The notes beneath the pieces were generated by a model, which ran no database searches, was not told the origin of the DNA, and worked only from the letters and a program-made list of their open reading frames with translations. The translations under genes were made by a program, and so were the position numbers. Of a DNA stretch of 64,000 nt, positions 37,288 through 38,913 are shown piece after piece. Where the stretch lies: the sequence record MG983840.1; one strand, 5' to 3'. The DNA is from Escherichia phage myPSH1131. Numbering within the stretch: the first letter of the stretch is position 1; every line of letters starts with the position of its first letter.

Positions 37288-37641
37288 TTACCACGGTGAA
37301 GCTCCATCTGCTTGGTTGACGAGAGAAGCTGCATCCTCTCCGTTAGTTAAAACGAATGGATTATCTTCATCAACTTCAAAGTCTTCCCTTTCTACAAGTC
37401 TCCCGGTTTCACTGATATACTTAGTATAGCAGACACCTGTCTGACCGTAGTTACGTTCTTTCAGTAATCGAATGACTGAGAGGTTCTTAGCTAAGCCATC
37501 AGCTTGCTTGTCACGCTCAAAGCCAATGATACACTGACACCAACGCATAAGAGAACGAGAGCCAGTGAACTGCACTTCACGTACCTGTCCACCTTCTTCA
37601 TGAGGAGCACCACCTGCCGGAGCATTAAGGTGAGATAGCAC
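37288..37641 (-). pseudogene. helicase C-terminal segment of T7-gp4-like primase-helicase, out of frame with upstream part
   Basis: IRLLKERNYGQTGVCYTKYISETGRL resembles gp4-type helicase C-terminal motif; acidic tail; separated from 37720..38628 by a frame break. Confidence 0.45.
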
Positions 37642-37719
37642 AAAAGCGGTAAAGTAAAGTCTAATTCTTTACACATACCAGCAAGCACCAGAGCGGTAAT
37701 GTTATCAAGGATGATGAAA

Positions 37720-38628
37720 CTACTTACACTGGTTTTCAACTACCCAGAAACGGATACACTGTTTAATGTCTTCCCATTCATTCTGTCCGAAGTTGTCATA
37801 CAAGAAGAATTTGTCTGCATAACGAAGTGCTTCATTACGCAAATCCTCCTCATCATATTCAACATCAGGTCGGTGGAAAGGAATTGATGCCGACTTACCA
37901 GCAATGTTCTTAACAGACATGCCTACCTTCTCTTCCAAGAAGAAGCCACCTCCATTAAAACCATGTTCTAAGCACAGATGAGCAACCAGCTCATGAGCAA
38001 TGAGTGTTTTACCACTCCCTACTCCACCACCAATTGCTACCACCTCTCCCCATCGAATACCGAAGGTCATCTCATTCAGAGTCTTCCACGGATATGGGAT
38101 ACCCCACTCCGCTTTCTTCAGAGCATCATCAAGGCAATCAAAGATTGTTACAGCACCAGCAGGAGATTCCCGCTTTGCTGAGTACTTGAGAATGTTGAAT
38201 AACTCTTGACCACGACCAGACAGAAGCATGTCATTCGCATCCTTAATCTCTTTCTCCACACCGTTGTATGGGAAAGTTCCTTTAGGAATACGAGCAAACT
38301 TAACATGAGGGAATAAAGAACGACCTTTTGTTAAAGCTATCTCACCTGCATCATCGTTGTCCATGCAGAGCACAACCTCCTCAAAACCATTTACGAAGTC
38401 TCGATTACGAGACAACACAGAAGAGATTGAACCTGCACCGAACGGTAAAGAAACACATGCTGGTTTGATGTTTGTTGCATTTGTAAAAGCTGTAAGGACA
38501 TGGAAACCTGACATACAGGATAGCGGGTCTTCAAAAATGAAAGAGATGCTCGGGAAGTAGGAACCACCGTAACGGACAACAGAGATCGAAGTTATCTTCA
38601 GTCCAACCTTCGCCAATGAGATTAGCAA
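37720..38628 (-). CDS. primase-helicase (TOPRIM primase domain plus helicase Walker A)
   Basis: TOPRIM motif VVLCMDNDDAGEIA; Walker A IGGGVGSGKT; first ~38 codons resemble a fragment of the GGCT-like gene. Confidence 0.6.
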   Translation of the reverse strand: MLISLAKVGLKITSISVVRYGGSYFPSISFIFEDPLSCMSGFHVLTAFTNATNIKPACVSLPFGAGSISSVLSRNRDFVNGFEEVVLCMDNDDAGEIALTKGRSLFPHVKFARIPKGTFPYNGVEKEIKDANDMLLSGRGQELFNILKYSAKRESPAGAVTIFDCLDDALKKAEWGIPYPWKTLNEMTFGIRWGEVVAIGGGVGSGKTLIAHELVAHLCLEHGFNGGGFFLEEKVGMSVKNIAGKSASIPFHRPDVEYDEEDLRNEALRYADKFFLYDNFGQNEWEDIKQCIRFWVVENQCK

Positions 38629-38733
38629 TAGTCCGTAAATTTTTAAACGGGTGACCTACGTAAATTACTTCTGACATTTAAAATACCTTTAGTCTTTCAT
38701 GATGTTTTCAATGTAAGACCCGTTGCGTACGAC

Positions 38734-38913
38734 TTACAGGGTGCAGTGCGTAGTGCCCTTTTCGAACACTTCGTAATTCCCACAACGGTTACAACTTCCC
38801 CACTCCTCACCAGTCTCTTCGTTACGGAAGAGAATCATGTGGTTGTGGGTTTTATCACGACCATGAGAGATACATTCCTTACAACCTGTGTCTCCCAAAA
38901 TGATCTTTGACAT
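38734..38913 (-). CDS. zinc-ribbon protein (59 aa), possibly detached primase zinc-binding domain
   Basis: RBS AGGAGG; CKEC ... CNRC; below track size cutoff; lies upstream of primase gene. Confidence 0.3.
   Translation of the reverse strand: MSKIILGDTGCKECISHGRDKTHNHMILFRNEETGEEWGSCNRCGNYEVFEKGTTHCTL

What the first reader, a model, noticed from the sequence alone, without database searches (positions are those of the whole stretch)
37288..38913. Primase-helicase appears chimeric and frame-broken
The TOPRIM plus Walker A ORF (37720..38628) begins with about 38 codons resembling a fragment of the GGCT-like gene (VRYGGSYFPSIS). A further GGCT-like N-terminal fragment lies at 38520..38676. The helicase C-terminal motifs are in a different frame (37288..37641). 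A 59-aa zinc-ribbon ORF (38734..38913) upstream might be the detached primase zinc-binding domain. Either the primase-helicase is assembled from separate polypeptides or the locus is damaged.
Basis: partly seen in the sequence, partly recalled or inferred. Interest (0 to 1): 0.5.

Follow-up and report, generated by a model that had tools for sequence, protein, structure and literature searches.

The report
Broken primase-helicase: sequence-construction artefact
The phage's essential primase-helicase gene really is in pieces in this sequence, but the breaks sit at junctions of a window-wide patchwork of contigs, strain variants and filler, so this is almost certainly a faulty sequence and not new biology.

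Summary
The window is Kuravirus (phiEco32-like coliphage) DNA. Its nearest clean relative is Escherichia phage ES17. There, and in about 400 other phage records, the primase-helicase is one continuous 596-aa T7 gp4-like protein.

In the window the gene is broken:
- Codons 1-55 (zinc ribbon) are intact.
- About 326 nt (roughly aa 56-174) are replaced by 208 nt: unmatched filler plus a degenerate GGCT 5' fragment.
- aa 175-459 are identical to ES17.
- A 4-nt insertion then creates a TAG stop, followed by a 54-nt deletion and a 5-nt duplication.
- The C-terminus is identical to ES17.

The break is one of dozens. The whole window alternates blocks 99.8-100% identical to ES17 or GenBank MG976803.1 (myPSH2311), diverged tandem "strain-variant" copies, and roughly 100-nt non-homologous fillers. 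It shares 100%-identical blocks and block boundaries with myPSH2311, a record published as scaffolds arranged by reference. That includes the exact nucleotide where the primase gene first breaks.

Verdict: an artefact of how the sequence was built, not a split enzyme. Interest is low.

The parts
38750..38913 (-). Primase zinc-binding domain, codons 1-55 (CKEC...CNRC), with the natural Shine-Dalgarno sequence and ATG. The ORF then runs into filler and stops at 38734.
   Evidence: 100% identical to ES17 gp075 aa 1-55. Identity to both ES17 and myPSH2311 ends at the same nucleotide, after ...GGGCACTAC.
38542..38749 (-). 208-nt replacement for about 326 nt of primase coding sequence (ES17 ~50984-51309, aa ~56-174). 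It is about 32 nt of unmatched sequence followed by a degenerate SU10-type fragment (end of the gene upstream of GGCT plus the GGCT 5' end). The fragment carries extra 2-, 21- and 9-nt deletions and a 4-nt insertion.
   Evidence: Base-level alignments. Self-blast 38556-38717 vs 41323-41512 gives 71%, and 38539-38617 vs 39361-39435 gives 88.6%. No phage record matches it better than about 83%.
37723..38541 (-). Primase TOPRIM (FIFED..., MDNDDAG) plus the helicase N-terminal part with Walker A (GGGVGSGKT). Equals ES17 gp075 aa 175-459.
   Evidence: 0 mismatches to ES17 and to myPSH2311. Weak Pfam Toprim_2 and DnaB_C hits. ES17 gp075 aligns to T7 gp4 at E~1e-32.
37719..37722 (-). 4-nt insertion (AAG|TAGT|TTC) that creates an in-frame TAG and a +1 frameshift.
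   Evidence: Alignment to ES17 and myPSH2311. Absent from all seven panel genomes.
37651..37718 (-). Out-of-frame stretch that should encode Walker B / motif H2 (FIILDNITALV...). It has a 54-nt (18-codon) deletion between 37687 and 37686 and a tandem ACTTTACTTT (5-nt duplication) that restores the frame.
   Evidence: The alternative-frame ORF 37491..37739 reads FIILDNITALV-LAGMCKELDFT.
37288..37650 (-). Helicase C-terminal part (motif H3 SHLN onward to the stop), in the same frame as the 302-aa and 59-aa ORFs.
   Evidence: Identical to ES17 gp075 C-terminus.
36753..37294 (-). Adjacent DNA polymerase 3'-5' exonuclease-subunit gene, also broken by a 16-nt deletion between 37240 and 37239.
   Evidence: alignment. 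tblastn finds only aa 23-185. Weak Pfam DNA_pol_A_exo1 hit.
39151..39525 (-). GGCT (GGACT/AIG2-like) gene, the parent type of the fragments. Its 3' end switches to an SU10-type junction at the same nucleotide where myPSH2311 turns into filler.
   Evidence: Pfam GGACT E=1.9e-14.
41323..41512 (-). Second, clean SU10-type GGCT 5' fragment. It is the closest in-window relative of the fragment inside the primase gene.
35378..36808 (-). Nucleotidyltransferase gene, diverged allele (copy 1). Together with copy 2 it brackets the locus.
   Evidence: 83 differences from copy 2, by codon position 22/15/46, with in-frame indels. Best database identity 95.5%.
39788..41158 (-). Nucleotidyltransferase gene, ES17-type allele (copy 2), out of reference order.
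   Evidence: 99.8% to ES17 47692-49253.

Best explanation
The broken, chimeric primase-helicase is an artefact of how this sequence was put together. It is not a property of a replicating phage.

The window is a patchwork. It is built from the same contigs as GenBank MG976803.1 (Escherichia phage myPSH2311). Diverged strain-variant contigs are laid down next to their homologues, and gaps are bridged by non-homologous or degenerate filler, often about 100 nt long.

The primase-helicase gene straddles two such joins:
- One join comes after codon 55. It is bridged by 208 nt of filler that includes a garbled GGCT 5' fragment.
- The other is near 37686. It is a 54-nt gap with small indels on either side.

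The real gene is inferred to be one continuous 596-aa T7 gp4-like protein identical to ES17 gp075.

Shown: the anatomy of the lesions, the window-wide patchwork, and the blocks and boundaries shared with MG976803.1. Inferred: that the cause is technical. Whether the patchwork came from reference-ordered scaffolding with gap filling or from some in-silico regeneration of such a record cannot be decided here.
For: 1. Every retained piece of the gene is 100% identical in nucleotides to ES17 and myPSH2311. The lesions are discrete blocks or indels, not gradual decay.
2. The window maps to ES17 as alternating blocks: 99.8-100% blocks, 88-95% duplicate blocks, and unmatched fillers of 99-104 nt.
3. 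tblastn with all ES17 proteins shows dozens of genes truncated, missing or duplicated. TolA is cut at aa 1115 of 1473. PhoH, ThyX, the ligase, gp088 and gp119 are truncated. gp087 is absent. gp078-080 is present three times.
4. Of the three tandem gp078-080 copies, one is 100% ES17, one is 100% ShigP1/myPSH2311, and the third is at best 95.6% identical to any other record. Alleles of different strains therefore sit in tandem.
5. MG976803.1 has the same triple copy and about 17 fillers of roughly 100 nt. The window is 100.0% identical to it over more than 25 kb of blocks. Window blocks start or end within 15 nt of 13 of its fillers, but the filler sequences differ.
6. Both sequences leave the ES17 primase gene at the same nucleotide, and leave the GGCT 3' end at the same nucleotide.
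7. [quoted passage not shown]
8. Relatives have one continuous gene. Six clean kuraviruses have a 1791-nt gene, an IMG/VR relative has a 596-aa ORF, and 395 of 403 phage records cover at least 80% of the protein in one place. The protein belongs to the Kuravirus-like core proteome and is among its most conserved members (PMC9965538).
9. The window and myPSH2311 both lack the ES17 tRNA-Arg region.
Against: - The source of the window was not identified.
- Its junction strings and window-specific proteins are absent from every collection searched, so no reads or record could be checked directly.
- The 4-nt insertion, 54-nt deletion, 5-nt duplication and 16-nt deletion are not in myPSH2311. They lie in sequence that is otherwise perfect. 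Simple contig concatenation does not obviously produce that, nor the garbled GGCT copy.
- The 208-nt replacement happens to keep the reading frame.
- One NTase block (39661-41222) is out of reference order.
Confidence: 0.88

Rival explanations
1. The sequence is a faithful copy of a real but defective DNA molecule. Possible sources are a rearranged, non-viable kuravirus genome from a mixed infection, carried by helper phages, or decaying phage DNA. On this reading the primase-helicase is a true pseudogene.
For: - The alleles in the duplicated blocks look natural. Differences are enriched at third codon positions and the indels are in frame.
- One copy equals ShigP1 exactly, so several real strains contributed.
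- Short direct repeats flank the 54-nt deletion, and the 5-nt insertion is a tandem duplication. Replication slippage can produce both.
Against: - Roughly 100-nt non-homologous fillers sit at block boundaries.
- The same boundaries occur in a record known to be scaffolds arranged by reference.
- The retained segments show no point-mutation decay.
- There is no match in 5,426 complete E. coli genomes, so it is not a prophage relic.
- So many core genes are hit that packaging and propagation are implausible.
Confidence: 0.07
2. The enzyme is truly split. A free zinc-ribbon peptide, a TOPRIM/Walker A protein with a GGCT-derived N-terminus, and a helicase C-terminal peptide would assemble into a working primase-helicase.
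For: - Three ORFs cover parts of the protein.
- Kuraviruses do naturally split their DNA polymerase into polymerase and exonuclease subunits (PMC9965538).
Against: - The N-terminal part of the RNA-polymerase domain (aa ~56-174) is absent.
- The Walker B / motif H2 stretch is out of frame and lacks 18 residues.
- Neither the TTG at 38628 nor the GTG at 37641 is preceded by a Shine-Dalgarno sequence (read directly from the sequence).
- No relative shares the split.
Confidence: 0.02
3. The gene is interrupted by a mobile element (group I intron, intein or homing-endonuclease cassette) or is read through by programmed frameshifting, so that a full protein is still made.
For: - Kuravirus genomes carry HNH and endonuclease VII genes.
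- The net length change of the three small lesions is a multiple of three (+4 -54 +5 = -45).
Against: - The 208-nt block replaces about 326 nt of coding sequence rather than being inserted into it.
- No Rfam family such as an intron is found in 35000-41600.
- The block holds no endonuclease ORF.
- The 4-nt insertion itself creates a TAG stop.
- Eighteen codons of the ATPase core are deleted.
Confidence: 0.01

Closest known systems
Escherichia phage ES17 gp075 DNA primase/helicase (YP_010673367.1; NC_070984.1 49685-51475), and its >=99% identical orthologues in 68 phage records
   Same: All retained segments of the window gene (aa 1-55, 175-459 and about 480-596) are identical to it. Gene order around it is the same (polymerase exonuclease subunit downstream, gp076 and GGCT upstream).
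   Different: ES17 has one 596-aa ORF. The window lacks aa ~56-174, has a GGCT-derived filler in their place, and carries a stop, a frameshift and an 18-codon deletion in the Walker B region.
Bacteriophage T7 gp4 bifunctional primase-helicase (PDB 5ikn, 6n7i, 1q57)
   Same: ES17 gp075 aligns to T7 gp4 over aa 117-571 at E~1e-32. The architecture is the same: zinc-binding domain, RNA-polymerase/TOPRIM domain, then an SF4 (DnaB-like) helicase.
   Different: The window copy is not a complete member. Part of the RNA-polymerase domain and the in-frame Walker B region are missing.
GenBank MG976803.1 Escherichia phage myPSH2311 and its truncated 'primase/helicase activity protein' AVP40154.1
   Same: - 100% identical blocks.
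- The same tandem triple gp078-080.
- The same kind of roughly 100-nt fillers, with coincident block boundaries.
- The primase gene is broken at the same nucleotide after codon 55.
- The tRNA-Arg region is missing from both.
   Different: - The filler sequences differ.
- myPSH2311 lacks the 4-nt, 54-nt, 5-nt and 16-nt lesions and several of the window's extra duplicate blocks.
- The window carries ES17-like sequence where myPSH2311 has small deficits or lacks about 6 kb.

Membership tests
T7 gp4-like bifunctional primase-helicase | N-terminal Cys4 zinc-binding domain | tested here: met
   CKEC...CNRC in the 59-aa ORF 38734..38913. Codons 1-55 are identical to ES17 gp075. It lies on a detached ORF.
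T7 gp4-like bifunctional primase-helicase | Complete RNA-polymerase domain (N-terminal subdomain plus TOPRIM) joined to the zinc-binding domain | tested here: not met
   aa ~56-174 are replaced by 208 nt of filler and GGCT fragment. The TOPRIM part is retained, but its Pfam Toprim_2 hit (E=0.0022) is below the gathering score.
T7 gp4-like bifunctional primase-helicase | SF4 helicase Walker A (GxGKT/S) | tested here: met
   GGGVGSGKT in ORF 37720..38628, identical to ES17 and aligned to the T7 gp4 P-loop.
T7 gp4-like bifunctional primase-helicase | Walker B / motif H2 and motif H3 in frame with Walker A on one polypeptide | tested here: not met
   A TAG stop and +1 frameshift at 37719-37722. 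The FIILDNITALV stretch is out of frame. Eighteen codons are deleted. The frame is restored only at about 37655.
T7 gp4-like bifunctional primase-helicase | Single continuous ORF of about 560-600 aa, as in relatives | tested here: not met
   Three ORFs of 59, 302 and 117 aa. Relatives have 596 aa.
Naturally split primase + helicase (separate polypeptides) | Each part has its own start codon and ribosome-binding site, has complete domains, and the split is conserved in relatives | tested here: not met
   No Shine-Dalgarno sequence before the TTG at 38628 or the GTG at 37641 (read from the sequence). Domains are incomplete. No relative is split.
Intron-, intein- or homing-endonuclease-interrupted gene | Insertion without loss of flanking coding sequence, with intron RNA structure or an endonuclease/intein ORF | tested here: not met
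   About 326 nt of coding sequence are lost. No Rfam hit in 35000-41600. No endonuclease ORF in 38542-38749.
GGACT/AIG2-like gamma-glutamyl cyclotransferase (PF06094) | Match to the Pfam GGACT domain over its full length | tested here: not met
   The full gene 39151..39525 matches (E=1.9e-14). The fragment ORF 38531..38677 and the 5' end of the 302-aa ORF give no GGACT hit. The fragment lacks the N-terminal YGSL segment.
Reference-ordered pseudo-assembly (contigs concatenated, gaps filled) | Blocks identical to known genomes, separated by non-homologous fillers of stereotyped length, with overlapping variant contigs placed in tandem | tested here: met
   Fillers of 99-104 nt at six sites plus others. 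Tandem variant copies. Block boundaries shared with MG976803.1, whose paper describes CONTIGuator2 arrangement.
Reference-ordered pseudo-assembly (contigs concatenated, gaps filled) | Raw reads fail to support the junctions | not testable with these tools
   No reads are available and the source record was not found.

The most novel reading that the evidence does not exclude
The arrangement is real. A kuravirus population would carry genomes in which recombination between co-infecting strains duplicated segments and broke the primase-helicase into a free zinc-ribbon peptide and a GGCT-tagged TOPRIM/helicase fragment. Such genomes would be propagated as defective or helper-dependent.
Probability: 0.03. 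Interest if true: 0.45.

Novelty: not a real feature. Interest (0 to 1): 0.06.

Why it matters
It has little biological weight. If the arrangement were real, a core replication enzyme split three ways and fused to a cyclotransferase fragment would be remarkable, but the evidence points to a faulty sequence.

The practical value is as a warning:
- The ORFs of this window, and of the public record MG976803.1 that shares its building blocks, should not be used for protein-family, pangenome or therapeutic-safety analyses without re-sequencing.
- Other odd "chimeric" ORFs in this window should be read the same way.

Tried and rejected
- **Source hunt.** Exact junction and allele strings were scanned in IMG/VR, JGI metagenomes and GTDB genomes. 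Nothing was found. A control 35-mer from the primase gene did find one IMG/VR kuravirus.
- **Protein look-ups.** Three window-specific proteins were looked up by exact sequence. None is on record.
- **Prophage relic.** No match in the complete E. coli genomes. Rejected.
- **Sister record myPSH1131 as source (a lead from memory).** Rejected. It is described as only 59% similar to SU10 and is placed in another proposed genus.
- **Intron or other RNA element.** Nothing in Rfam, and no tRNA. Rejected.
- **Random in-silico mutation as the origin of the duplicate blocks.** Rejected for the NTase copy. Its differences are enriched at third codon positions and its indels are in frame.
- **Pipeline artefact versus machine-generated or regenerated sequence.** I could not distinguish these. 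Both predict memorised blocks with improvised filler. No tool here tests it.
- **File handling.** The first attempts to read L002 and L003 failed because they are stored inside L001.fa.

Full report
**What the window is.** The focal region and its flanks match 98 phage records, almost all Escherichia or Shigella kuraviruses (Gordonclarkvirinae, phiEco32-like). The best match is Escherichia phage ES17, NC_070984.1, 75,007 bp. In ES17 the gene order on the minus strand is GGCT (gp077), gp076, DNA primase/helicase (gp075, 1791 nt, 596 aa), DNA polymerase exonuclease subunit (gp074), nucleotidyltransferase (gp073), dCTP deaminase (gp072). SU10, ShigP1, EcoN5, YF01 and MN03 have the same order and the same 1791-nt gene.

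**Checking the observation.** I translated 38913..37288 in a single frame and compared it with ES17 gp075. I then aligned the DNA base by base. The anatomy is:

| Window (minus strand) | Content |
|---|---|
| 38913-38750 | Codons 1-55, the zinc ribbon with its natural ribosome-binding site; identical to ES17 |
| 38749-38542 | 208 nt replacing about 326 nt of ES17 (aa ~56-174) |
| 38541-37723 | Identical to ES17 aa 175-459 (TOPRIM, Walker A) |
| 37722-37719 | 4-nt insertion creating TAG and a frameshift |
| between 37687 and 37686 | 54-nt deletion |
| 37660-37651 | Tandem ACTTTACTTT (5-nt duplication) that restores the frame |
| from about 37655 to the stop at 37288 | Identical to ES17 |

All three ORFs are therefore in the same frame. 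Only the roughly 65-nt stretch that should encode Walker B (FIILDNITALV...) is out of frame.

The 208-nt replacement is about 32 nt of unmatched sequence followed by a degenerate copy of an SU10-type segment: the end of the gene upstream of GGCT plus the GGCT 5' end. The copy carries extra 2-, 21- and 9-nt deletions, a garbled roughly 35-nt core and a 4-nt insertion. No phage record matches it better than about 83%. The neighbouring polymerase exonuclease gene is also broken, by a 16-nt deletion between 37240 and 37239.

**What the intact protein is.** ES17 gp075 has a Pfam DnaB_C domain (E=1e-10) and weak Toprim hits. It aligns to T7 gp4 structures 5ikn, 6n7i and 1q57 over aa 117-571 at E~1e-32. 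From that alignment, the segment missing in the window covers the N-terminal part of the RNA-polymerase domain, up to the strand that carries the TOPRIM glutamate. The frame-shifted and deleted segment corresponds to T7 '[32 protein letters not shown]', which is Walker B / motif H2 and what follows it. A tblastn search with gp075 finds 403 phage records. Of these, 395 cover at least 80% of the protein in one place and 68 are at least 99% identical. An IMG/VR relative also has a 596-aa ORF. The published core-proteome analysis lists the primase/helicase among the most conserved core proteins of Kuravirus-like phages (PMC9965538).

**The break is not local.** Self-comparison shows many diverged direct repeats, 87-100% identical, over the whole window. 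Mapping to ES17 shows alternating blocks at 99.8-100%, duplicate blocks at 88-95% placed beside their homologues, and deletions.
- A tblastn search with every ES17 protein shows many genes truncated: TolA at aa 1115 of 1473, PhoH, ThyX, the ligase, gp088 and gp119.
- Many genes are absent, including gp062-066, gp087 and gp099-106.
- Others are present two or three times.
- The nucleotidyltransferase gene brackets the focal locus in two alleles. They differ at 83 positions, distributed 22/15/46 over codon positions, with in-frame indels. That is natural-looking variation, but the allele is not found above 95.5% identity in any record.
- Of the three tandem gp078-080 copies, one is 100% ES17, one is 100% ShigP1/myPSH2311, and one is at best 95.6% identical to any other record.
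- Per-base classification also shows unmatched fillers of 99-104 nt at six places, plus others of 44-382 nt. Several have an odd CGTG/GCGT-rich look.

**Link to a public record.** GenBank MG976803.1 (Escherichia phage myPSH2311, 68,712 bp) has the same triple gp078-080 array, a truncated primase/helicase CDS, and about 17 non-homologous fillers of roughly 100 nt.
- The window is 100.0% identical to it over many blocks, for example 1-8013, 17274-20649, 31907-33641 and 43115-44328.
- Window blocks begin or end within 15 nt of 13 of its fillers, yet the filler sequences differ.
- At the focal locus both sequences leave the ES17 primase gene at exactly the same nucleotide, after ...GGGCACTAC at codon 55. 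Both also leave the GGCT 3' end at the same nucleotide.
- Both lack the region that holds ES17's tRNA-Arg.

A procedure of that kind would explain variant contigs set in tandem and bridged gaps.

**Interpretation.** The most likely explanation (about 0.88) is that the locus is damaged only on paper. The primase-helicase straddles two joins of a patchwork sequence, and the true gene is the continuous ES17-type ORF.

What remains open is how the patchwork arose. The 4-nt, 54-nt, 5-nt and 16-nt lesions and the garbled GGCT copy are absent from myPSH2311. Plain concatenation does not obviously produce them. They might be errors at contig ends, or the product of some in-silico regeneration of a myPSH2311-like record. 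The window's junction strings and window-specific proteins are in none of the collections searched, so the source could not be inspected.

**Rivals.**
- A real defective molecule (0.07) would fit the natural-looking alleles. It does not fit the stereotyped fillers, the boundaries shared with an arranged record, the lack of point-mutation decay, or the absence from E. coli genomes.
- A truly split enzyme (0.02) fails because catalytic parts are missing, the fragments lack ribosome-binding sites, and no relative is split.
- An intron, intein or recoding explanation (0.01) fails because coding sequence is lost rather than interrupted, and Rfam finds nothing.

**Verdict.** This is not a real biological feature, and interest is about 0.06.

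Noticed in passing
window 41323-46038: Three tandem copies of the gp078-gp079-gp080 (ATP-grasp) segment, 91-93% identical to each other. One is 100% ES17, one is 100% ShigP1/myPSH2311, and one has no match above 95.6% in any other record. They are separated by fillers of about 100-200 nt. The same array is in GenBank MG976803.1.
   Followed up: yes
window 11038-11141, 44328-44426, 50598-50696, 52352-52451, 56399-56498, 60428-60526; also 46039-46281: Non-homologous fillers of 99-104 nt (one of 243 nt) at block boundaries, several CGTG/GCGT-rich. 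They resemble the roughly 100-nt fillers of MG976803.1 in style but not in sequence. They look like bridged scaffold gaps.
   Followed up: partly
window 12113-12502 (+): A 129-aa endonuclease VII-type ORF (Pfam PF02945, E=6e-26) lies in a 382-nt stretch absent from ES17 and myPSH2311. It sits between the diverged second copies of gp022 and gp023. It looks like a homing-endonuclease insertion belonging to another strain's allele.
   Followed up: partly
window 48229-48380: An exact 76-nt tandem duplication (48229-48304 equals 48305-48380) inside the aminotransferase (gp083) gene.
   Followed up: no
window 36753-37294 (-): The DNA polymerase 3'-5' exonuclease-subunit gene next to the primase-helicase is broken by a 16-nt deletion between 37240 and 37239. 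Only aa 23-185 remain readable.
   Followed up: yes
window 34629-35162, 35291-35368 and 39656-39778 (-): One complete dCTP deaminase of a divergent (myPSH2311/ShigP1-type) allele, only 59% identical in protein to ES17's. There are also two N-terminal fragments of the ES17-type allele, one of them fused to a diverged piece of gp080 in the 74-aa ORF 39554..39778.
   Followed up: partly
window 56399-56498; ES17 65499-65575: ARAGORN finds no tRNA in the window. ES17's single tRNA-Arg(TCT) lies in a stretch (ES17 ~64.6-66.0 kb) that is missing from both the window and MG976803.1 and is replaced in the window by a 100-nt filler.
   Followed up: yes
GenBank MG976803.1 (loci L005/L006): The public record itself contains about 17 non-homologous fillers of roughly 100 nt, a duplicated GGCT 5' region flanking one filler, and many truncated core genes. 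Its annotation should be treated with caution.
   Followed up: partly
window 29755-30027 and 31061-31415: Two unmatched stretches (273 and 355 nt) lie inside the diverged second copy of the gp041-gp048 region. ORFs 29977..30297 and 31054..31422 there have no Pfam hit. Their origin was not determined.
   Followed up: no
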